Shown one piece after another: positions 714 through 7,980 of a stretch of 22,709 nt of DNA. The DNA is from a virus, in UHGV virus genome UHGV-2199615. The stretch is one strand, 5' to 3'. The notes beneath the pieces were generated by a model. The model was not told the origin of the DNA, searched no databases, and was given only the letters and a program-made list of their open reading frames with translations. The position numbers and the translations under genes were made by a program. Position 1 is the first letter of the stretch, and each line of letters starts with the position of its first letter.

Positions 714-1616
714 TCAGTAATTATGTACTGAAGGAGGTAATTCTTTATTCTTAAGTCTCATCCATGCGGAAAGATTCGTTGGTCCGTCTGGCTCATTGAT
801 ATCAACATCTCGTGTGTGATTGATTAAAACGTCTCTCGCCATATCGATAATACGGGAGAACTCATAACCGCAGTCATGACATCTGCCGGAATAGTTCGAT
901 TGAATTTGTTTTAGCGCCGGATACAGTTCGCGGAATAATGCCTGTGAGCGGTTGGCATAATCCCATAGCCATACAAGGCTGTTTGCTTCTTTTGCAGAAA
1001 GCTCGTTGGTTTTCTTCTCTTGTTTGCCGATGAACTCACCTTCAAGCACTACCCTGTGGATGTACTCTACTGCTTGTGGTATCTGAGATGCATCAAGCTC
1101 TTCAATACTTTCCACATTGAAACGCTGATGAATCATTGCATAAGCTTCTGGGTACATTAGATGCTTTTTGCTGACTAGCATATTTACAGCATCACGAAGC
1201 GGAGTCCTGTCATCAACAGATGTTTTCTTCCGTGCATTTGCTGCCTCTCCCTTTGTCCAGTAGTCATGCAGCACAGTAAAGCATTCTTCCTGGTACTGAA
1301 TCAGTTTATCGCGGATGTCAGCACGAACTTTCTCAGGGTTGATGCTGAACAGCCATCCATTTAACTTCTTCAAAGGAAGGCAGAGTAGCTTACGAAGCTT
1401 ACCATCAGCGGCAACCATGTTCATATGAACACAGTTGAATTTGCTAATCTGCTTCATGAGTTTTGTTTGCTGCGTTGACCAGCTCATTCCGAGGTTTTCA
1501 ACGATTGGCTTCATCGCAACATATGCAACTCCGGCAGCCATGGCGGTGATAATTTGCTGACCGTTGAATGGCACGTAAGAGGTGTTCACTGCTTCTAAAA
1601 TTGCTATACTATTCAT
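714..1616 (-). CDS. ant: Antirepressor Ant (P22 immI-type)
   Basis: ORF 714..1682; start chosen at internal Met ([21 protein letters not shown]...), giving 300 aa, with GGAGA about 10 nt upstream. Sits downstream of an arc-like gene and upstream of tailspike, as in P22 immI. Confidence 0.8.
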
Positions 1617-1697
1617 GTTGGTTTTTCTCCACGGATTTACCGACAACCGAAGCCCTGACTGTTCCAGCAGTTGGGGCTTCACTGTTTTGATTTCTTT
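1617..1697 (+). ncRNA. Candidate sar-like antisense RNA complementary to the ant ribosome-binding site (about 70-80 nt)
   Basis: Plus-strand -10-like TATACT at 1605-1610 (a TTCACT -35-like hexamer lies only 14 nt upstream, so the promoter is weak evidence). Plus-strand hairpin gaagccctgactg(1649-1661)/cagttggggcttc(1668-1680), 13 bp with two G-U pairs, followed by a U-rich tract (actgttttgatttcttt). A transcript would be antisense to the ant SD and start codon. Inferred by analogy with P22 sar. Confidence 0.35.
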
Positions 1698-1848
1698 GCC
1701 GCATCAAGCATCACTTCTGAAAACGTGCGCTTGCCACTGAATACTCTTTCTCTTCTCAATTTTTCGTTCGTGCCAAATGATTCGCCATGAACAAAATTTG
1801 GTCTTAAAATGGTAATCGCAATCTCTTTGACTACTGCATCCAAGCGAA

Positions 1849-2001
1849 TCACACCGTTACCCCCTCTCTCTTCAGGCTGTCTATCAGGCGCTTGATAACC
1901 TCTGAGTTAAACGACCTGCACTCTTCCTTTGCCCTGCTACCGATAGCATCCTTTAACGACTGCGGCATCCTTACCAAAATCTTACTTATTTCTTTCTCCA
2001 T
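1849..2001 (-). CDS. arc: Arc-like ribbon-helix-helix repressor
   Basis: ORF 1849..2037; start chosen at internal Met (MEKEISKILVRMPQSLKDAIGSRAKEECRSFNSEVIKRLIDSLKREGVTV, 50 aa) preceded by GGAGGG. RHH signature (RMP...R..A...RS.NSE) and size similar to P22 Arc (53 aa). Divergent from the mnt-like gene. Confidence 0.7.
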   Translation of the reverse strand: MEKEISKILVRMPQSLKDAIGSRAKEECRSFNSEVIKRLIDSLKREGVTV

Positions 2002-2115
2002 GTTACCCTCCACGCAAACAACTCTTTTCGAATACAAAAGATAGCAAAGTGAGTATATCTAGTCAAAATTTTTTTGCATACACTTTGCTATCAAATTGAA
2101 TACCAAAGGTGTTAT
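2002..2115. promoter_or_regulatory. Divergent immI promoter/operator region (Pant-like leftward, Pmnt-like rightward)
   Basis: 114-bp AT-rich spacer between divergent arc-like and mnt-like genes. Perfect 12-bp inverted repeat gatagcaaagtg (2040-2051) and cactttgctatc (2081-2092), 29 bp apart. Confidence 0.5.
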
Positions 2116-2364
2116 ATGGCAAAGGGTGTGTCAATTTCTCCAACTACGGTAAGAATCCCTGAATCTTTACGCGAGGCTCTTGCTGTCAGAGCATCAAAAA
2201 ATGGTCGCTCTGTTAACTCCGAGATCGTCATGATTTTGCAAGCCGCGATTGATGAAGATAGGTCGCCAAAGTCAGTTGAGTCATTTGCTCAGCAAGAAGC
2301 TGATAAATTCAAAGAGGCGCTACTTGAGACGCTAAAGACCATGTATGCTAAGGATGAAAAATAA
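2116..2364 (+). CDS. mnt: Mnt-like ribbon-helix-helix repressor
   Basis: ORF 2074..2364; start chosen at internal Met (MAKGVSISPTTVRIPESLREALAVRASKNGRSVNSEIVMILQAAI...TLKTMYAKDEK, 82 aa). Resembles P22 Mnt (83 aa) in the N-terminal RHH and C-terminal helix, and is divergent from arc-ant. Confidence 0.7.
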   Translation: MAKGVSISPTTVRIPESLREALAVRASKNGRSVNSEIVMILQAAIDEDRSPKSVESFAQQEADKFKEALLETLKTMYAKDEK

Positions 2365-2900
2365 TGCTGCACACAATTCATTTCTTATGCCCTGTTAACA
2401 CTGCCACTGTTGGGCAACTTCAGAACCACTGTCTCACCGCATTATCTCAAGGCGCAACTGAATTAAATATCCATATATCAAGTCAGGGAGGGGAAACTGC
2501 TGCTGGCTTTACTGCGTATAACTTTCTTAAGTCACTCCCTGTTACCGTTAGAACTCACAACATAAGCAATGTTGAATCCATAGCTAATATCGTTTTCCTG
2601 GCTGGCTCAGAACGTTTCGCAAACCCATTATCAAGATTCCTGTTACATCCTCTATTATGGTGCTTTGCCTCCCCAGCCGCCGACCATGCCAGATTGAGAG
2701 AGTACGGGAAATGCCTCGATAACGATCTTGATCGCTTCGTTGAGACGTTCAATATCGACATCGGAACCCATATTAGGTGGGCATCCCTGATAGCAGACTC
2801 GACCATTTTGGATGCTAACAAGGCTCTTGAGCATGGCATAATTAATTCCATAAAAACTGCAAGGCTGGCATCCAATCAGGCAAACTGGTGGGTTGTTTGA
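2364..2900 (+). CDS. ClpP/S14-fold (Clp-protease-like) protein of unknown role, translationally coupled to mnt
   Basis: ATG at 2364 overlaps the mnt TAA (taATG). 178 aa with HISSQGGETAAGFTAYNFL and NVESIANIVFLAGSERFANPLSRFLLHP, which align by eye with the ClpP motifs NSPGG..AG..IYD and GQAASMGAFLLTAGAKGKR...SRVMIHQP. Candidate Ser, His and Asp positions are present. Confidence 0.6.
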   Translation: MLHTIHFLCPVNTATVGQLQNHCLTALSQGATELNIHISSQGGETAAGFTAYNFLKSLPVTVRTHNISNVESIANIVFLAGSERFANPLSRFLLHPLLWCFASPAADHARLREYGKCLDNDLDRFVETFNIDIGTHIRWASLIADSTILDANKALEHGIINSIKTARLASNQANWWVV

Positions 2901-2925
2901 TGGGTAAATCATGATTACTCCTTAT

Positions 2926-2950
2926 AAAAAACCCACCTGACGGTGGGTTT
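2926..2950 (-). terminator. Intrinsic terminator between convergent genes (strong on minus strand, weak on plus)
   Basis: Plus strand a6-cccacc-tgac-ggtggg-ttt. The minus-strand RNA gets a 6-bp GC stem followed by U6, immediately after the stop of the 149-aa ORF. Confidence 0.6.
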
Positions 2951-3398
2951 AGTCAAACATAGTGTTTCTAAAGTCTCTCGCATACCCTGCTAACACTCTC
3001 ATTCTATTATGATTGTTAGCAGACATGTGAGCTACAGGATGAAAAAGAGCAATCAATGAATACCTGTTCTCATCAAAAAGATTTTGTGCATAAACGAGAG
3101 CGGTATTGGATGTTTTATGCCACTGCAACTTTTGCGGTGTGCTGATATCTGTGCCATTTTTTATTGGCTCAAATTTATTTTCACCAATTGCTAAATGAAG
3201 GTGCATAAGGCCTGCATCTTCAATATCAGGAGGTCGATGATAAGAGGTGTCTCTGCCAAAATAGCTGGGCAACGTTCCCGTAGACTTGTAGATGATAAAA
3301 TCATCTACAAGTGTTTGTTTTAAATCAGGAAACTCAACAAAAACCGGGGAGAAAAAATAGTCAAAACTATCCTGATTATATTCCACGGTTACTTGCAT
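2949..3398 (-). CDS. Putative toxin, YafO-like (ribosome-dependent mRNA interferase family) by recalled motif similarity
   Basis: 149 aa; GAGG SD 7 nt upstream of ATG at 3398; starts 8 nt after the stop of the upstream 188-aa ORF. Segments DFIIYKSTGTLPSYFGRD, LMHLHLAIGEN and QKLQWHKTSNTALVYAQNLFDE resemble E. coli YafO as I recall it (FISYKRDGVLPDIFGRD, VAHIHLANENN, QLRQWSRTNDTAHLVYCQGAFDE). Confidence 0.6.
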   Translation of the reverse strand: MQVTVEYNQDSFDYFFSPVFVEFPDLKQTLVDDFIIYKSTGTLPSYFGRDTSYHRPPDIEDAGLMHLHLAIGENKFEPIKNGTDISTPQKLQWHKTSNTALVYAQNLFDENRYSLIALFHPVAHMSANNHNRMRVLAGYARDFRNTMFD

Positions 3399-3406
3399 GT
3401 TTTACC

Positions 3407-3973
3407 TCAGTGGAAGTTACCAGAGTGAAACACACGAGTCCCGTGCTCAGCAAGCGCACGCAAACCAGCCATATCTACGGAACTATCAAAAACAACCGGA
3501 ACACATGAGCGTTGTTTAATAAGACTATTCAGGTTGGTTACGGCAGATCTGGCATCAGCAACAACGATATAGATATCTCTTGCGATCTCTTTAAAATCAG
3601 CAGAAGCTTCTTTGAATACCGATTTCATTGCCCCTTCAAGTCCTCTCAATTGATGCTCTATCAATCGAGACTTTTCTGGTTCAATGATAGACAACACATT
3701 GTCTACATTCTCATCGGTAGCGTTTGCAAGAACACGATAAGCGTATTTCAGCATTCGAGACAATTCTTTAATCGAAGACACCGCCTCATGAAGCTCATCA
3801 TTAGCCCGTTCACTGCTGAATGAGGATTGATGGTAAGCGTGCTGAACGTTATCAGTAACAACCACCTCACAACTGAACGCAGAAGCTTGCTGTAATAGCA
3901 AACCTATTGCGACTCCAGCTTTGGCAGCGTTCAAGCTAAACATTTCATCAATCCCATTAGTCTCATTGCTCAT
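3407..3973 (-). CDS. Hypothetical protein (188 aa), first gene of a two-gene operon; candidate antitoxin or partner of the YafO-like protein
   Basis: ORF 3407..4003; start chosen at internal Met (MSNETNGIDEMF...) preceded by strong SD AAGGAGG. No motif I recognise, and no obvious RHH/HTH. Stop TGA lies 8 nt before the downstream ATG. Confidence 0.6.
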   Translation of the reverse strand: MSNETNGIDEMFSLNAAKAGVAIGLLLQQASAFSCEVVVTDNVQHAYHQSSFSSERANDELHEAVSSIKELSRMLKYAYRVLANATDENVDNVLSIIEPEKSRLIEHQLRGLEGAMKSVFKEASADFKEIARDIYIVVADARSAVTNLNSLIKQRSCVPVVFDSSVDMAGLRALAEHGTRVFHSGNFH

Positions 3974-4148
3974 ACAAACCTCCTTCTTATCGGAGATTAT
4001 CAATAGCTATGCATCCATTGAATACACGCTATGCGCAATAAGTTTACGTCACGTGATATCATTATGCAACCACCGTTCTATCACCGACTAACTTTACTCC
4101 CACTCCTATACATCATCTGGTATCCTGCGCAAAACTAAGGAGGTTGGT
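3974..4148. promoter_or_regulatory. Divergent promoter region between the 188-aa operon (minus) and the membrane-protein gene (plus)
   Basis: 175-bp AT-rich intergenic region; palindrome TCACGTGA at 4049-4056 is a possible operator; strong SDs on both flanks. Confidence 0.3.
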
Positions 4149-4499
4149 GTGAATGCTCAGTCTGTCATCATGGTTTTCCTTGGGCTGATTGTCGCAAAAC
4201 TATATCCAGACTGGTGGAAAGGGGCATTAGCTACTGTCGCCATCTATTTGCTTTTATCCATCGTTAAGCGATCACTCGCTGAGACCGTAAATCAAGCAAA
4301 ACGTTTCTCATTTAAGAGTTTAATAAACTATGTTACTGGGCTTATTTTTTGCCTTTCAATTCTGATCGCTTCGGCTTTTTTGCCCGTATCAATAGCTAAT
4401 TTTTTTGGCGCACCATATGAGGTAGGTTATCTATTCTCTGTTTCCTGTCTTGCCATTGCTCTTCTTTACCTGTGGACGAGATCAAAGAATAAAAATTAG
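4149..4499 (+). CDS. Small polytopic inner-membrane protein (116 aa); candidate superinfection-exclusion or lysogenic-conversion protein
   Basis: GTG start preceded by TAAGGAGG. Three to four hydrophobic helices (VIMVFLGLIVAKLY, ALATVAIYLLLSIV, LIFCLSILIASAFLPVSIANFF, LFSVSCLAIALLYLW). Convergent with the gp16-like gene, in the position occupied by sieA in P22. Confidence 0.55.
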   Translation: MNAQSVIMVFLGLIVAKLYPDWWKGALATVAIYLLLSIVKRSLAETVNQAKRFSFKSLINYVTGLIFCLSILIASAFLPVSIANFFGAPYEVGYLFSVSCLAIALLYLWTRSKNKN

Positions 4500-4516
4500 C
4501 CATCCGTGGCTGCCAG

Positions 4517-6532
4517 TTATTGAGCTTCTTTTTGTGATGCCTGTGCGACTCTGGTGAGCGATTGTGTGACCGTACTGATCGCTCTGTCATATGCTGTGCT
4601 ACCTTTTGGCGTATTTGCCAGACGTAACAAGGCATTTCGTATAACAGGGCTTTCGTATGCCTTCGCAGCTCCTCCTACGACACCAGCAGCAGGAACAACA
4701 AACGCAGCCGTTTTTAGCATCCCCGCTAATACTGCTGCGTTTATGATGCCACCACCAACTAACAATCCATAAAGCTGCTGACCATTTAAGTTTTGAACGT
4801 TCGCTTTTGCCGCGTGTCTTGTATCGTTGAGGTATTTAATAACGCCGTCCAGTTCCTTTCCATGTACGCCTTTAAAGAAAGTTGCTGATTGCTTCCTGTT
4901 CCGGTGTAACGCATTAATAAACTTTTCAACACTAATATTTCCAGACGGATCAGTCGCCTTATCTACAGCATTCTGAACTATGGCTGCTCGTGCGTTTTGC
5001 CTACCATTGTCATCCAGAAGCCTGTAAAGCTGAGAACGTTCTGATGGGTTTTGGCTAAAAACGAGTTTTGTTACATCCTCAGGTGTAGCCTTGCCGCTGG
5101 CTATTGCCTTTTGAACGCGCGTTCTTCTCATCATGTCATTGAATCTAGCCCATGAGCGATCAACCCTAGACATATTGGCAGCTTCTTCTGAGCCTAGTTT
5201 TTGGGATACTGCTTTTTTCATATCCGCTGTATATGCCTTGTAGACAATATCGCTGGCTTTCTGGAGCGTGTCTTTATCAACAGTCTCGTTTGAATTCATG
5301 AACCGCTTTCGAAGGTCAGTTCTGTTTTCTCTCGCCAGACGCAGGTCATTGGGTCCGCTGGTGATATCGTCTTTAAATTGCTGCAAGACTTTTACCGCGG
5401 CTCTATCCTGAGATTTGCCCGGGCGGCTTAACACGGCAATCTGATTGTCGATAGCTTTTACCGTGTTTGAGAGATCGACAGGGGTATCCCCCATAGCGTC
5501 AATTATGCGGTTATATCGCTTTCCTGCTGCCTCAATGAATTTTTGTTGCCCTTTAGTCGCAGATTCATAAAGCTGTTTATCAGAAATGCCACCCAGACCA
5601 TCGCTAAATGTTCTGACTAAATTTTCTCGTGCTTGTTGTTGATTCAGCCGATTCTTACCGGTTCCAAAAAAAGGAACTCTTTCGCCTAATGTCTGAGCCT
5701 GACTCTGCATAAAGGTTTTATCTTTCAGCGTGTCACTGGTCATTAACGGCAGGTTTCTTTCCGACGCAAAATCGACAGCAGCCTTTGCTTCCGGTGACAT
5801 CTCACCGCGAACAGCCCTGGAAACCGCACTAACTGTATTTTCCAGCCCCTTGCCAACACCACCAATGCCAGCAGAAATTACCGTTTGTGCAGGATCAATA
5901 TCTTCTCCGCCAGCAAGGCTGGTGCCACCCTGTAGTGCTAAATCTGTAGCAGCTGATTTCCCTATGGCACCAAGCACCGTTCCAGCCCTGCCCGCTGGTG
6001 TGAACGCTAACGCATTAGCAAGAAACGAAGTCAGGTCTTGCGGTGATAAACCTGGCTTGTTCAGGGCATAATCACCGGATGGCAGGGAAACGATAGTGTT
6101 ACCCTTCTCATCCTGCCTTAATTTCGCCCCCATACTCTGAAGAATCTTTTCCTGAGACGCGTCGGAGCCGAAAAGTTGAGACCATCCAGCCTTCAGGGCA
6201 TCCATGCTTAGTGAGTTCAACTCAGGGGCAGCCCCAACATTTTGCAGTCTCTCCATTTCTGGTGTCATTCGGCTTTCACCGGTAACGGCATCGCGCATTG
6301 CAGCACCTAAAACAGCCCCTTGCTCAGCAGAGCGATCTAGTCCTTCCTTCTGCTGAGTGGCAAGCTGTGCATATCCTGATGCAAGTGAGTTGTCTGCTGG
6401 CGATTGCTGAACACCTTGTTGTGTTGGCGCTGACTGACCAGCAAAATACTCATCAATGGCGGACCCAATATCTTCCGTGCTCGTACCATCAGGAAAGGTA
6501 AATGTCTTACCATTTGCAGTTACTTTCATCAT
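4517..6532 (-). CDS. Ejection (E) protein, P22 gp16-like
   Basis: 671-aa ORF, last of three consecutive ejection-protein genes (230, 483, 671 aa) matching the P22 order gp7-gp20-gp16; start overlaps the gp20-like stop (ATGA). Confidence 0.75.
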
Positions 6533-7980
6533 TCCACCGTAAATTGAATGCCTGATTTTGACGTGTAGCTACCTCCTGCTGATTGCTGAGTAGCTGGCTG
6601 TTGCCTTGATGATTTCTTCCCGCCATTACCAACATTAACGTTATATTGCTGGTTGTAATTGTCGGTATATTGCTGAATGTCGCGCATTGATTGTTGCAGC
6701 GCTTCAGGACTTGAGAAATCAGGCTTTGGCATACCCTGAAAATACCTATTGGCCTCTGCTTCGGTGTTGATGCCAGATGCCCCCATATCTCGGGCTGCTG
6801 CAATCCCCTGATTTTGCATTTTGCCCATGATTCGCTGTGCAGCGTTGTATAGCCTCCTCTCCTCAACACCAGATGCCCTGCTACGAATATCTGCACCAAG
6901 AGCAAAAGAACCTGAAGAACCTGTAATACCTGTCATGAAGCCAAGATCGTCAATTGATGCGCCAGAAATTGCATCAAGATCTTTCTTCATTTCGTAATTC
7001 TGTGCATTAGCTGCCGATGTAGCCGGAGCAGCAATAGAACTGGCGGGGACGCGAATCATATTGCCCTCGTTGTCTATTCCTTCGTAGAACGCATTAGCAC
7101 CAGCGCCGTGAAGCTTCCTACCAACCGTTACCGTTCTGCCATCTGCCAGTTGCACAACATTCTCCCCGCCAGCATCAGGACGACCTCGAACACGAAGATA
7201 TGTCTTTTGTTGCTCTGGAGACAGGCTGTTGAAATATTGATATTCTTTAACAGATGCAGGAACAGCACCTCCAGCAGTGCGCAGGGAGTTTTCACGGCTA
7301 ACAGCAATGCTTTGCGCCTTTAAACCTTCCCCAGCTTTATTGCTGCGAATCGTCTCTGCCAACTTGCCACGCTCAATATCCCGACCTTCCATTTGATCTT
7401 TGATATCGAAATACTTCTCATGACCGAGAGAAAATAGTGCCAGATTACCTGCGAAGTGCTGGAAGCCCTGCGGGTCATTAACCTGCATTTCCGCAATAGT
7501 TTCTGGAGGGATACCTAAACGACGCATCTCCTTTTCGTTATCCATCATGAACCTGCCAAATGCACCCGGACCAAGCGACGAAGCGACCTGAGCCTTAAGC
7601 GCCAGATTGCCAAAATCATCCCGCTGGGCGTCATCGACATACCCCATGCCTTTACGGACTTCCTCAAACTCTTCGGGGAATGCTGTAATAAGATTACGCA
7701 TCTGCTCCCTGTCGCCGGACGCATAAGCATCCGCATAACCTTTCTGGAATGCCGCTTTACGCTCCTGCTTTTGCTGCTGCTTATAAATATCAGCAACTCC
7801 AGCCAGACCACGAAGACCTGTCAGAGCAACGTTATTTGCACCTGATCGAGCCAGTTCATTGTTTTCGCGGATCAGACCAAGCGTTGCGTTAATGTCGCTT
7901 GCCTTTGGCGCATTCTCATTTTGCGTACCGATGCCAGCCAGAAACCCACCAGAATTAATACCCTGTTGCCACGTAGCCAT
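6529..7980 (-). CDS. Ejection protein, P22 gp20-like
   Basis: 483 aa (P22 gp20 is about 471 aa); position between the gp7-like and gp16-like genes. Confidence 0.75.

What the first reader, a model, noticed from the sequence alone, without database searches (positions are those of the whole stretch)
2364..4516. Compact cargo island between the ejection-protein genes and immI
About 2.1 kb carrying four non-structural genes in three transcription units in both orientations (ClpP-like; toxin-like operon; membrane protein), bounded by terminator-like hairpins (2926-2950 and a weak one at 4498-4511). By eye it is more AT-rich than the structural genes. This is the slot where P22 carries sieA, a typical place for lysogen-expressed defence or conversion morons, so the genes may have been acquired together or act together.
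Basis: partly seen in the sequence, partly recalled or inferred. Interest (0 to 1): 0.55.

Follow-up and report, generated by a model that had tools for sequence, protein, structure and literature searches.

The report
Three independent cargo cassettes, P22-like prophage
The stretch is the known fast-changing cargo region of a P22-like E. coli prophage, made of three separately swappable units (a shortened ClpP protease gene, a YafO toxin with an undescribed partner, and a small membrane protein), not one island.

Summary
The four ORFs, the 2929-2950 hairpin and the low GC are real. GC is 42.0% against 49.6% in the structural genes. The window is the APEC-1/CUS-3-like prophage of E. coli ST95 (100% identical to S88 and APEC O1). 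The region is the "ant moron" of P22-like phages, described in 2008.

It is not one island. Breakpoint mapping shows three units that occur in every combination:
- A 580-bp indel carries an N-terminally truncated ClpP paralogue, translationally coupled to mnt. It is about 50% identical to P. plecoglossicida ClpP1 (PDB 9UXT).
- A 1228-bp cassette (2926-4153) carries a YafO-family toxin and a 188-aa helical partner of no described family. It is bounded by two conserved ~42-bp junctions that flank at least six alternative cargoes in other phages.
- A 116-aa membrane protein is linked to the gp16 allele. It sits where true sieA genes sit but is not a SieA homologue.

The partner-YafO pairing holds in 33 of 33 loci, plus one Pseudomonas prophage. 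The pair most likely acts as a toxin-antitoxin module. The truncated ClpP family is usually a lone prophage gene pointing against its neighbours. PADLOC finds no known defence system. The 4498-4511 hairpin is no better than chance. Interest is modest.

The parts
2116..2364 (+). mnt (Arc/Mnt-family repressor, 82 aa). First gene of the unit that also carries the ClpP-like gene.
   Evidence: Pfam Arc 1.4e-10. RefSeq calls it an 'Arc family DNA-binding protein' in S88. Homology to prophages without the ClpP-like gene stops at 2343-2345.
2364..2900 (+). N-terminally truncated ClpP paralogue (178 aa). Its ATG overlaps the mnt stop (TAATG).
   Evidence: Pfam CLP_protease matches residues 24-165 to profile positions 37-180. 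E 1.6e-35 over the full length to PDB 9UXT, PpClpP1. Ser72 and His95 are invariant and there is no conserved Asp. Below all NCBIfam ClpP and head-protease cut-offs. dN/dS 0.077.
2344..2925 (.). ClpP-like indel unit (about 580 bp): the last ~7 codons of mnt plus the ClpP-like gene.
   Evidence: In L005, L006, L014, L016 and L018, homology runs to 2343-2345 and resumes at 2924-2926, with only about 9 bp between.
2909..2950 (.). Left conserved junction, containing the bidirectional hairpin 2929-2950. It is a strong intrinsic terminator for the minus-strand toxin operon and a weaker one for mnt-ClpP.
   Evidence: Folding. A 42-bp 100% match lies under an annotated terminator in phage Emek. Found with at most 3 mismatches upstream of the right junction in about 30 of 44 junction-bearing contigs. 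The consensus scan missed it because the stem absorbs three of the U's.
2949..3398 (-). YafO-family toxin (149 aa), a putative mRNA endoribonuclease.
   Evidence: Pfam PF13957, 78.9 bits against a cut-off of 25. 38% identical to K-12 YafO, E 7e-20. Residues D33, F34, Y37, FGRD47-50, H66, H68 and H124 are invariant across 19 homologues including K-12 YafO.
3407..3973 (-). 188-aa all-helical partner, the putative antitoxin (phrog_8416, no Pfam or NCBIfam family). The start ATG at 3973 is preceded by AAGGAGG.
   Evidence: A YafO gene lies 8 nt downstream in 30 of 33 loci and overlaps by 4 nt in 2. Only 24 clusters in 1.84 billion representatives. AF2 pLDDT 70, helical bundle, no PDB fold match. 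No similarity to YafN. dN/dS 0.115.
2926..4153 (-). Self-contained 1228-bp toxin cassette: terminator, toxin, partner and about 180 bp of upstream region.
   Evidence: The same end-points recur at 97-99.9% identity in eight different prophage backgrounds. Present in 55 of 5426 E. coli genomes, all at 99% identity or more.
4112..4153 (+). Right conserved junction. It holds the ribosome-binding site AAGGAGG and the GTG start (4149) used by whichever gene occupies the sieA position.
   Evidence: Shared with phiv205-1, JEP4, epsilon34, ST-35 and Emek, which carry different cargo. 42 IMG/VR contigs carry it. At least 10 unrelated downstream genes follow it, including true type A SieA.
4149..4499 (+). 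Small polytopic membrane protein (116 aa from GTG 4149; RefSeq annotates 109 aa from ATG 4170). A positional analogue of sieA, linked to the adjacent gp16 allele.
   Evidence: Hydrophobic segments. No Pfam, PHROG or PADLOC family. No hit in 50,697 phage records. Present in 280 of 5426 E. coli genomes. Co-inherited with gp16 (window 4130-6385) in L044 and L045. Not similar to P22 SieA and lacks its motif.
4498..4511 (-). Weak hairpin claimed as the right boundary. Not distinguishable from chance.
   Evidence: -5.7 to -6.8 kcal/mol, z -0.5 to -0.8; 43-66 of 200 shuffles fold as well.

Best explanation
**What the region is.** Window 2364-4516 is the variable half of the 'ant moron' of a P22-like prophage, between ejection gene 16 and immI. 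It is a mosaic of three independently exchangeable, lysogen-oriented cassettes, not a single island.

**1. mnt-ClpP unit.**
- The mnt promoter transcribes mnt and a translationally coupled, N-terminally truncated ClpP paralogue.
- By analogy with its 50%-identical relative PpClpP1, this paralogue would form a wide-pore tetradecamer that cannot dock ClpX by itself.
- It could stack on a host ClpP ring and so tune host Clp proteolysis in the lysogen. This step is inferred.

**2. Toxin cassette (2926-4153).**
- A bicistronic operon encodes a 188-aa helical protein followed 8 nt later by a YafO-family mRNA endonuclease.
- It ends at a strong minus-strand terminator.
- The partner most likely binds and neutralises the toxin. 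Loss or depletion of the partner would free the RNase and stop translation. Prophage loss or infection by another phage could cause this.
- The outcome would be prophage addiction and/or abortive-infection defence.
- Shown: the pairing, the mobility as a unit, the co-divergence and the purifying selection. Inferred: toxicity, neutralisation and the trigger.

**3. Membrane protein.**
- A 116-aa polytopic membrane protein is translated from a ribosome-binding site and GTG that lie in a conserved junction.
- It occupies exactly the position where other P22-like phages carry sieA, and it is inherited with the neighbouring gp16 allele.
- It is most likely another envelope-acting lysogenic-conversion or exclusion factor. 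This is inferred from position only.

**How the cargo is exchanged.** The two ~42-bp junctions (2909-2950 and 4112-4153) provide homology for cassette exchange between phages.
For: **Identity and prior description of the region.**
- The window is 100% identical to E. coli S88 and APEC O1.
- PMC2629481 describes the region between genes 16 and 9 as a rapidly changing 'ant moron' and names the APEC-1 prophage.

**Independence of the three units.**
- Breakpoints fall at 2343-2345 / 2924-2926 and at 4151-4153.
- All combinations are observed.
- Genome counts are 128, 55 and 280, against 49 for the whole arrangement.

**Cassette junctions.**
- 42 viral contigs carry the right junction.
- At least 6 cargo classes lie between the two junctions. 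They include a SocA/Panacea pair and P63C-domain proteins.
- At least 10 unrelated genes follow the right junction, including true SieA.

**Toxin pair.**
- 33 of 33 loci are paired, and all pairs lie on the same strand. The gap is 8 nt in 30 loci.
- There are 23 distinct pairs. The partner diverges faster than the toxin (mean identity 46% against 60%).
- Mantel r = 0.84, with 0 of 2000 permutations reaching it.
- The same architecture occurs in phage HK639 and in P. aeruginosa prophage D14L.
- In distant loci the neighbours are tape-measure and minor tail genes.
- Residues conserved in K-12 YafO are retained.

**ClpP-like gene.**
- establish the family, the truncation and the Ser-His pair. PMC12900304 gives the properties of PpClpP1.
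- 33 of 36 diverged viral loci are counter-oriented to their flanks. 41 of 44 close relatives have mnt directly upstream.
- Individual contexts were read.

**Selection.** dN/dS values are well below 1.
Against: - No experiment or transcript data were available. No promoter for the toxin operon or the membrane gene passed the consensus scan, so expression in the lysogen is inferred from orientation and position.
- The partner has no recognisable DNA-binding domain, unlike most type II antitoxins.
- Its N-terminus is hydrophobic, and in distant homologues it looks like a signal peptide. That would be odd for a cytoplasmic antitoxin.
- PADLOC models give no defence hit.
- The toxin operon points the same way as the late operon, so it is also transcribed during lytic growth.
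- All 55 E. coli copies are at least 99% identical, so within E. coli the distribution reflects recent spread rather than long-term retention.
- The phage ClpP-like protein is only distantly related to E. coli ClpP (24 bits). Hetero-assembly with the host ring is therefore an extrapolation.
Confidence: 0.72

Rival explanations
1. The four genes form one co-acquired, co-operating defence island. For example, the ClpP-like protease degrades the 188-aa antitoxin to release YafO, with the membrane protein acting as sensor or effector.
For: - The genes are adjacent, and all are AT-rich.
- 49 ST95-type genomes carry the full set.
- Antitoxins are classically degraded by Lon or Clp proteases (general knowledge).
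- An alternative cassette at the same site in Emek has a SocA/Panacea-type antitoxin. That family includes a ClpXP adaptor.
Against: - The toxin cassette occurs without the ClpP-like gene (L005, L006, L014, L016, L017, L018) and without the membrane gene (L005, L010, L014).
- The ClpP-like gene occurs without the toxin cassette (phiv205-1, PhiR12_1, Pectobacterium, and about 75 E. coli genomes).
- The membrane gene occurs without either (L044, L045).
- Distant members of both families sit in unrelated phage positions and are never together.
Confidence: 0.04
2. The 188-aa/YafO pair is a lytic-cycle accessory, not a lysogen toxin-antitoxin or defence module. Examples would be a phage RNase used for host shut-off or mRNA turnover, together with its inhibitor or chaperone. 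It would be expressed mainly from late read-through transcripts.
For: - The operon is co-directional with the late operon here.
- In nearly all distant loci it lies among tape-measure and minor tail genes on the same strand.
- No promoter was detected by the scan.
Against: - The cassette carries about 180 bp of its own upstream sequence and its own strong terminator wherever it moves. This is the hallmark of an independently expressed cargo gene.
- It is dispensable: most P22-like phages lack it.
- The YafO family is otherwise known only from toxin-antitoxin modules (PMC11980606).
- One copy has an eroded toxin next to an intact partner, as expected for toxin-antitoxin decay.
Confidence: 0.12
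3. The ClpP-like gene is a (remnant) head-maturation protease, as annotated in phage phiv205-1.
For: - The best PHROG hit is phrog_94, 'head maturation protease' (7e-21).
- The phiv205-1 record annotates it that way.
Against: - It scores 49 bits against the NCBIfam ClpP-related head-protease cut-off of 120.
- It lies in the mnt operon on the strand opposite to the structural genes.
- 33 of 36 diverged relatives are counter-oriented lone genes between lysis and terminase genes and similar gaps.
- P22-type capsid assembly uses a recycled scaffold without a prohead protease (established knowledge).
- The closest characterised relative is a cellular-type ClpP tetradecamer.
Confidence: 0.02
4. The cargo is decaying, functionless hitch-hiking DNA.
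For: - E. coli copies are nearly identical (recent spread), so retention says little.
- IS3 insertions occur in the ClpP-like gene in three strains, and one copy of the toxin has a frameshift.
Against: - All four ORFs are intact in the window.
- Across diverged homologues dN/dS is 0.08-0.12 for the ClpP-like gene and the partner, and 0.39 for the membrane gene. Toxin dN is 0.079 with saturated dS.
- 23 distinct intact partner-toxin pairs exist.
Confidence: 0.05

Closest known systems
'ant moron' / immI-sieA region of P22-like phages (P22: 16 - sieA - orf59a - mnt - arc - sar - ant - 9; Villafane et al. 2008, PMC2629481)
   Same: - Same position between the gene 16 and gene 9 homologues, and the same immI core: mnt, arc, a sar RNA (83.9 bits) and ant.
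- Same orientation logic and the same high turnover of cargo.
- The APEC O1 prophage is listed in that paper.
   Different: - The gene content differs. There is no sieA, orf59a or hkcC.
- Instead there is a truncated ClpP behind mnt, a YafO cassette and an unrelated membrane protein.
- The two ~42-bp junctions and the three-unit breakpoint structure were worked out here. I did not find them in the papers I read.
E. coli K-12 YafN-YafO type II toxin-antitoxin system (dinB operon)
   Same: - The toxin belongs to the same Pfam family (PF13957) and is 38% identical, with shared invariant residues.
- The gene order is antitoxin then toxin, with a very short spacer.
   Different: - The upstream partner is a 188-aa helical protein with no similarity to the 97-aa Phd/YefM-type YafN and no detectable DNA-binding domain.
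- The toxin is below the NCBIfam equivalog cut-off (79 against 153 bits).
- The module is phage-borne and mobile.
PpClpP1 of Pseudomonas plecoglossicida (PDB 9UXT; PMC12900304)
   Same: - About 50% identity over the full length, and the same N-terminal truncation (178 against 183 aa).
- Conserved Ser and His, with no canonical Asp.
   Different: - Here the gene is prophage cargo in the mnt operon.
- The residue at the third triad position is Ser/Ala-Thr in the family rather than Pro.
- Oligomeric state, activity and partnership with the host ClpP are untested.
- The paper does not mention phages.
P22 SieA superinfection-exclusion protein (Leavitt et al. 2024, PMC10883804)
   Same: - Same position next to gene 16, same orientation, and the same conserved upstream junction as true type A sieA genes in other prophages.
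- Predicted polytopic membrane protein.
   Different: - No sequence similarity (E 0.29).
- It lacks the FxRYPxEAxxFNK motif.
- It is 116 aa instead of 162-164 or more.
- Function is unknown.
SocA/Panacea (DUF4065) two-gene cassette of Salmonella phage Emek
   Same: It occupies the same cassette site between the same two junctions, on the same strand, and is also a two-gene toxin-antitoxin-like pair.
   Different: The proteins are unrelated. The antitoxin domain there is a described, promiscuous family, whereas the 188-aa partner here has no described family.

Membership tests
YafO-family type II toxin (Pfam PF13957) | Significant full-length match to the YafO_toxin profile above the curated cut-off | tested here: met
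   78.9 bits against 25; residues 37-145 match profile positions 3-101 of 101.
YafO-family type II toxin (Pfam PF13957) | Homology to the experimentally characterised E. coli K-12 YafO, with retention of family-invariant residues | tested here: met
   38% identity, E 7e-20. 18 invariant columns are shared, including FGRD and HxH. It is not an equivalog by NCBIfam (79 against 153 bits).
YafO-family type II toxin (Pfam PF13957) | Upstream, co-directional, closely spaced partner gene (antitoxin-toxin order) | tested here: met
   33 of 33 loci; the gap is 8 nt in 30 and a 4-nt overlap in 2.
YafO-family type II toxin (Pfam PF13957) | Cognate antitoxin of the YafN (Phd/YefM) type with a DNA-binding domain | tested here: not met
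   No similarity to YafN. No Pfam or NCBIfam domain. The AF2 model is a helical bundle without a fold match.
YafO-family type II toxin (Pfam PF13957) | Growth inhibition by mRNA cleavage, and neutralisation by the partner | not testable with these tools
   Needs expression and rescue experiments. A single-sequence AF2 model of the toxin was unusable (pLDDT 37).
ClpP (peptidase S14) proteolytic subunit | Match to the CLP_protease profile above the cut-off | tested here: met
   44.4 bits against 20.2.
ClpP (peptidase S14) proteolytic subunit | Canonical Ser-His-Asp triad | tested here: not met
   Ser72 and His95 are invariant in 22 homologues. The Asp position is variable (D/N/Q/K/S, then S/A-T). 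This matches the Ser-His-Pro state of PpClpP1.
ClpP (peptidase S14) proteolytic subunit | N-terminal axial loop region needed for gating and for docking of ClpX/ClpA | tested here: not met
   The protein starts at about profile position 37 and aligns from residue 3 with the truncated PpClpP1. All NCBIfam ClpP models score far below their cut-offs.
PpClpP1-like truncated ClpP clade | Full-length similarity to PDB 9UXT and the same truncated architecture | tested here: met
   E 1.6e-35; query residues 3-175 align to chain residues 4-179.
ClpP-related phage head-maturation protease | Score above the NCBIfam NF045542 cut-off, and location in the head-gene cluster | tested here: not met
   49 bits against 120. 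The gene is in the mnt operon on the opposite strand.
SieA superinfection-exclusion protein | Position between the gene 16 and gene 9 homologues of a P22-like prophage, transcribed opposite to the late operon | tested here: met
   True type A sieA follows the same junction in 6 contigs.
SieA superinfection-exclusion protein | Sequence similarity to SieA type A, B or C and the motif FxRYPxEAxxFNK | tested here: not met
   BLASTP E 0.29 against P22 SieA. The motif is absent. The motif is taken from PMC10883804. Types B and C were not compared directly.
SieA superinfection-exclusion protein | Blocks DNA delivery by P22-like phages | not testable with these tools
   Needs plating and K+ efflux assays.
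Known anti-phage defence systems (PADLOC-DB v2) | Any component matching a defence-system model | tested here: not met
   0 hits for three proteins. One insignificant ZorA hit (E 0.004, 13.9 bits) for the 188-aa protein. DefenseFinder was not available.
'ant moron' of P22-like phages | Variable, non-morphogenetic gene set between the gene 16 and gene 9 homologues, usually with mnt/arc/ant | tested here: met
   definition.

The most novel reading that the evidence does not exclude
The N-terminally truncated, gate-less ClpP paralogue belongs to a widespread family of lone, counter-oriented prophage genes. On this reading it is a prophage effector expressed in the lysogen. It would co-assemble with, or act beside, the host Clp machinery. 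Its role would be to control lysogeny (for example antirepressor turnover in the mnt-linked E. coli allele) or to destroy proteins of superinfecting phages. That would be a new class of prophage proteolytic conversion or defence factor. In parallel, the 188-aa protein would be the founding member of a phage-restricted antitoxin family dedicated to YafO toxins.
Probability: 0.12. Interest if true: 0.65.

Novelty: new member of a known kind. Interest (0 to 1): 0.3.

Why it matters
The region itself is a textbook variable cargo slot, so the main value is negative. It should not be reported as a new multi-gene defence island.

Three by-products are useful:
- **YafO toxins in prophages are not orphans.** They have been reported as lone toxins, for example in P. 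aeruginosa prophages (PMC10449497). They in fact have a conserved, undescribed partner family. This gives an easy toxicity-and-rescue experiment and would improve toxin-antitoxin annotation.
- **The PpClpP1-type truncated ClpP is typically prophage cargo.** It was recently characterised structurally as a chromosomal 'paralogue'. Its prophage context reframes its biology and suggests testing for effects on lysogeny or superinfection.
- **The two ~42-bp junctions define a cassette site.** They can be used to mine P22-like prophages systematically for lysogen-expressed cargo, including new exclusion proteins at the sieA position.

Tried and rejected
- **PADLOC scan** of the four proteins: nothing.
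- **Fold search** of the AF2 model of the 188-aa protein against the PDB: only generic helical bundles, best E 0.06.
- **AF2 of the YafO-like protein.** The single-sequence model was unusable, pLDDT 37. So the RNase fold was not checked structurally, and no complex model could be made.
- **PDB sequence search** for the toxin: no solved relative.
- **Membrane protein.** tblastn against 50,697 phage genomes gave no hit. Comparison with CUS-3 hkcB and with P22 SieA showed no similarity.
- **Promoter and terminator scan.** It found no convincing promoter for the toxin operon or the membrane gene, and it missed the real 2929-2950 terminator. A candidate TTGCAT-N17-TAAACT with an internal TCACGTGA palindrome, upstream of the partner gene, was read by eye. 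It is unverified.
- **First attempt to fetch loci** with the 23-sequence alignment failed for lack of conserved stretches. It was repeated with 12 sequences.
- **The 13-bp perfect palindrome inside the toxin gene** (3284-3312) was considered as a regulatory element. I rejected it as a family feature because it is absent from diverged homologues.
- **Literature searches** for a prophage ClpP-like anti-phage role found nothing.

Full report
**Where the window comes from.** The 2.9 kb around the finding is 100% identical to chromosomes of E. coli ST95-type strains: S88, APEC O1, the type strain ATCC 11775 and many avian and human extra-intestinal isolates. In S88 it lies in a P22-like prophage next to intS and an endosialidase-type tailspike. 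Phage CUS-3 matches 69% of the window at 99.5%. It is different between about 1050 and 7780, where it carries two mnt genes, two hypothetical genes and hkcB. The structural genes are on the minus strand. The order read on the plus strand is:
- tailspike N-terminus;
- ant (714-1616, -);
- sar RNA (1617-1683, +; Rfam 83.9 bits);
- a 57-aa ORF;
- arc (1849-2001, -);
- mnt (2116-2364, +);
- then the four genes of the finding;
- gp16 (4517-6532, -).

**Checking the observation.** The four ORFs exist as described.
- Pfam gives CLP_protease for 2364-2900 and YafO_toxin for 2949-3398. It gives nothing for 3407-3973 or 4149-4499.
- The last ORF has three to four hydrophobic segments.
- GC of 2364-4516 is 0.420 against 0.496 for the structural part. 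No same-size structural window falls below 0.468. immI to the left is just as AT-rich (0.435).
- The hairpin at 2929-2950 is strong: a 9-bp stem, -14.9 kcal/mol, z about -2.7. On the minus strand it is followed by a U-run. It is therefore the terminator of the toxin operon and lies inside the claimed island.
- The 4498-4511 hairpin is no better than shuffled sequence.
- The ClpP-like ATG overlaps the mnt stop (TAATG). That gene belongs to the mnt unit.

**One island or several units.** blastn of the window against related prophages gives recurrent, sharp breakpoints.
- Prophages without the ClpP-like gene match up to 2343-2345 and again from 2924-2926, with only about 9 bp in between.
- The stretch 2926-4153 (1228 bp) recurs with the same ends at 97-99.9% identity in eight backgrounds.
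- The membrane gene is co-linear with the gp16 allele (4130-6385) in prophages that have neither of the other units (L044, L045).

All combinations occur:
- toxin cassette alone (L005, L014, L016, L017);
- toxin cassette with a YobH-family gene (L006);
- toxin cassette with the membrane gene but without the ClpP-like gene (L018);
- ClpP-like gene with the toxin cassette but without the membrane gene (L010);
- ClpP-like gene without the toxin cassette (phiv205-1, EC.P3 and E212; a Pectobacterium prophage; and the lambda-like PhiR12 phages, where ant-arc-mnt-ClpP sits between tail genes L and K).

Among 5426 complete E. coli genomes the ClpP-like unit is in 128, the toxin cassette in 55 and the membrane gene in 280. 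Only 49 have the whole arrangement. The idea that the genes were acquired or act together is therefore not supported.

**The cassette site.** Both ends of the toxin cassette coincide with ~42-bp sequences that are conserved in P22-like phages carrying other cargo.
- The left junction is 2909-2950, the hairpin. Phage Emek annotates it as a terminator.
- The right junction is 4112-4153. It contains AAGGAGG and the GTG at 4149.
- An exact 26-mer of the right junction is present in 42 IMG/VR contigs.
- Between the two junctions I found at least six cargo classes:
  - a 121-aa HExxH protein with a YjzC-like ORF (n=16);
  - this YafO cassette (n=6);
  - P63C-domain proteins (two classes, n=5 and n=1);
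  - a SocA/Panacea pair (n=2, as in Emek);
  - a 2.7-kb class, seen once, that holds a transposase-like ORF and a truncated SocA/Panacea-like ORF (my reading of the ORFs; not scanned against families).
- Downstream of the right junction at least ten unrelated small genes start at the same place. They include hkcB-like and Sf6 gp38-like proteins, and genuine type A SieA (164 aa, with FGRYPGEAKGFNK). From their printed sequences, most begin with a hydrophobic or signal-like N-terminus.

The slot is thus a two-position cassette site. This refines the published description of the region as an 'ant moron' in rapid flux, which already listed the APEC O1 prophage (PMC2629481).

**The toxin pair.**
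- The 149-aa protein is a YafO-family member. It is 38% identical to K-12 YafO (E 7e-20) and keeps all residues that are invariant across 19 homologues.
- YafO is a BECR-fold mRNA endonuclease of type II toxin-antitoxin modules with antitoxin-toxin gene order. Its ribosome dependence is debated (PMC11980606, PMC8546651).
- The upstream 188-aa protein has no Pfam, NCBIfam or PADLOC family and belongs to phrog_8416.
- It is unrelated to YafN.
- Its family is very small: 6 clusters in a word-indexed search of 5.8 billion proteins, and 24 clusters at 50% identity in an exhaustive profile search of 1.84 billion.
- AF2 predicts a helical bundle (pLDDT 70) with no PDB match.
- In all 33 loci fetched through the partner, a YafO gene follows on the same strand. 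The gap is 8 nt in 30 loci and a 4-nt overlap in 2.
- The 23 distinct pairs co-diverge (Mantel r 0.84, 0 of 2000 permutations reaching it). The partner evolves faster than the toxin.
- The same pair is cargo in the tail region of phage HK639 and in P. aeruginosa prophage D14L. In D14L the toxin was reported without a partner.
- Neighbours of distant pairs are mainly tape-measure and minor tail genes.
- dN/dS is 0.115 for the partner. Toxin dN is 0.079 with saturated dS.
- One contig has a frameshifted toxin next to an intact partner.

These features fit a toxin-antitoxin module with a new antitoxin family. Toxicity, neutralisation and any defence role remain inferred. Caveats are the lack of a DNA-binding domain, the hydrophobic N-terminus of the partner, and the absence of a promoter that passes the scan.

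**The ClpP-like gene.**
- The 178-aa protein aligns over its full length (E 1.6e-35, about 50% identity) with PDB 9UXT, ClpP1 of P. plecoglossicida.
- That protein is N-terminally truncated and forms a tetradecamer with a 42.7 A pore. It has low peptidase activity and a Ser-His-Pro triad, and it does not bind ClpX. It forms a more active heterotetradecamer with the canonical ClpP2 (PMC12900304).
- In 22 homologues Ser72 and His95 are invariant and the Asp position is not conserved.
- The protein scores far below every NCBIfam ClpP or head-protease cut-off.
- Its relatives are prophage cargo. They sit between lysis and terminase genes (Klebsiella, Leclercia, Citrobacter, E. coli), between N and erf (Proteus), between tail-fibre and lysis genes (Chromobacterium), and behind mnt in a Pectobacterium P22-like prophage.
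- In IMG/VR, 33 of 36 diverged copies lie against the orientation of at least 60% of flanking ORFs, and only one has mnt. 41 of 44 close copies have mnt directly upstream. ORF calls there are heuristic.
- dN/dS is 0.077.

The head-protease annotation in phiv205-1 is therefore unlikely. A lysogen-expressed modulator of Clp proteolysis is the best guess, but it is untested.

**The membrane protein.**
- It has no family and no homologue in 50,697 phage records.
- It is present in 280 E. coli genomes and a few other enterobacteria.
- It always sits next to, and convergent with, a particular gp16 allele.
- It is not a SieA homologue: no similarity, no motif, and it is shorter.
- It occupies the sieA position behind the same junction.
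- The GTG at 4149, 5 nt after AAGGAGG, is the more likely start than the RefSeq ATG at 4170.
- An exclusion or envelope-conversion role is plausible from position only.

**Verdict.**
- The 'cargo slot' interpretation is right but already known.
- The 'acquired together or act together' idea is contradicted.
- No known defence system is present by PADLOC models.
- The pieces are new members of known kinds. Two are worth a small experiment: the YafO partner family and the prophage-borne truncated ClpP.

Noticed in passing
window 1617-1683 (+): sar antisense RNA of immI (Rfam RF00262, 83.9 bits against a gathering score of 43), overlapping the start region of ant. A 57-aa ORF (1679-1852, -) lies between arc and ant, which P22 lacks.
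   Followed up: partly
window 3284-3312: A perfect 13-bp inverted repeat with a 3-nt loop inside the YafO-like ORF (codons LVDD-F-IIYK). It is far longer than chance would give in 22.7 kb. It is present only in the E. coli P22-like allele, is 8 bp in L019, and is absent in distant homologues. The scan flagged it as terminator-like on the plus (antisense) strand.
   Followed up: partly
L010 5560-5720 (IMG/VR 2537562173_000011): This copy of the toxin gene has a T6-to-T7 frameshift that removes the N-terminus. The loop of the palindrome is also inverted (TTT to AAA, Phe to Lys). The partner gene is intact, so this is an eroded toxin.
   Followed up: partly
window ~2390 (strains E10, FY26, NCTC11151; hits H10-H12, H190): An IS3-family element is inserted near the 5' end of the ClpP-like gene in three E. 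coli genomes. Villafane et al. 2008 also drew an IS3 in this region for one prophage.
   Followed up: no
window 4149 vs 4170: RefSeq starts the membrane ORF at ATG 4170 (109 aa). GTG 4149 lies 5 nt after AAGGAGG inside the conserved junction. An unrelated YobH-family gene in L006 uses the same start. Other alleles are annotated at 129-130 aa.
   Followed up: partly
window 3407-3973 (-), residues 11-35; alignment A2: Met11 is nearly invariant, and many distant homologues start there. The following ~25 residues are hydrophobic, and in distant members they resemble signal peptides. This is unexpected for a cytoplasmic antitoxin and remains unexplained.
   Followed up: no
window 1047-7776 vs CUS-3 (L003): The prophage differs from CUS-3 in more than the cargo. 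Most of immI and the gp16 and gp20 ejection-protein alleles also differ. Only short islands of similarity remain, such as 6434-6567 in other phages. This agrees with the reported hypervariability of genes 16 and 20.
   Followed up: partly
L170-L177 (IMG/VR), ~78 nt upstream of the ClpP-like gene: In one sub-clade of the truncated ClpP family (52% identity), a 182-aa ORF lies on the same strand directly upstream. It may be a partner gene and has not been characterised.
   Followed up: no
L049 (phage PhiR12_1, 2025-4037): A complete ant-arc-mnt-ClpP-like module, 98% identical to the window, is inserted between tail genes L and K of a lambda-like siphophage. It ends at the same hairpin junction.
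   Followed up: partly
window 3960-4175: The intergenic region between the partner gene and the membrane gene holds an 8-bp palindrome, TCACGTGA, inside a candidate TTGCAT-N17-TAAACT promoter for the toxin operon. There are also mirrored ribosome-binding regions (inverted repeat 3970-3985 / 4137-4152).
   Followed up: no
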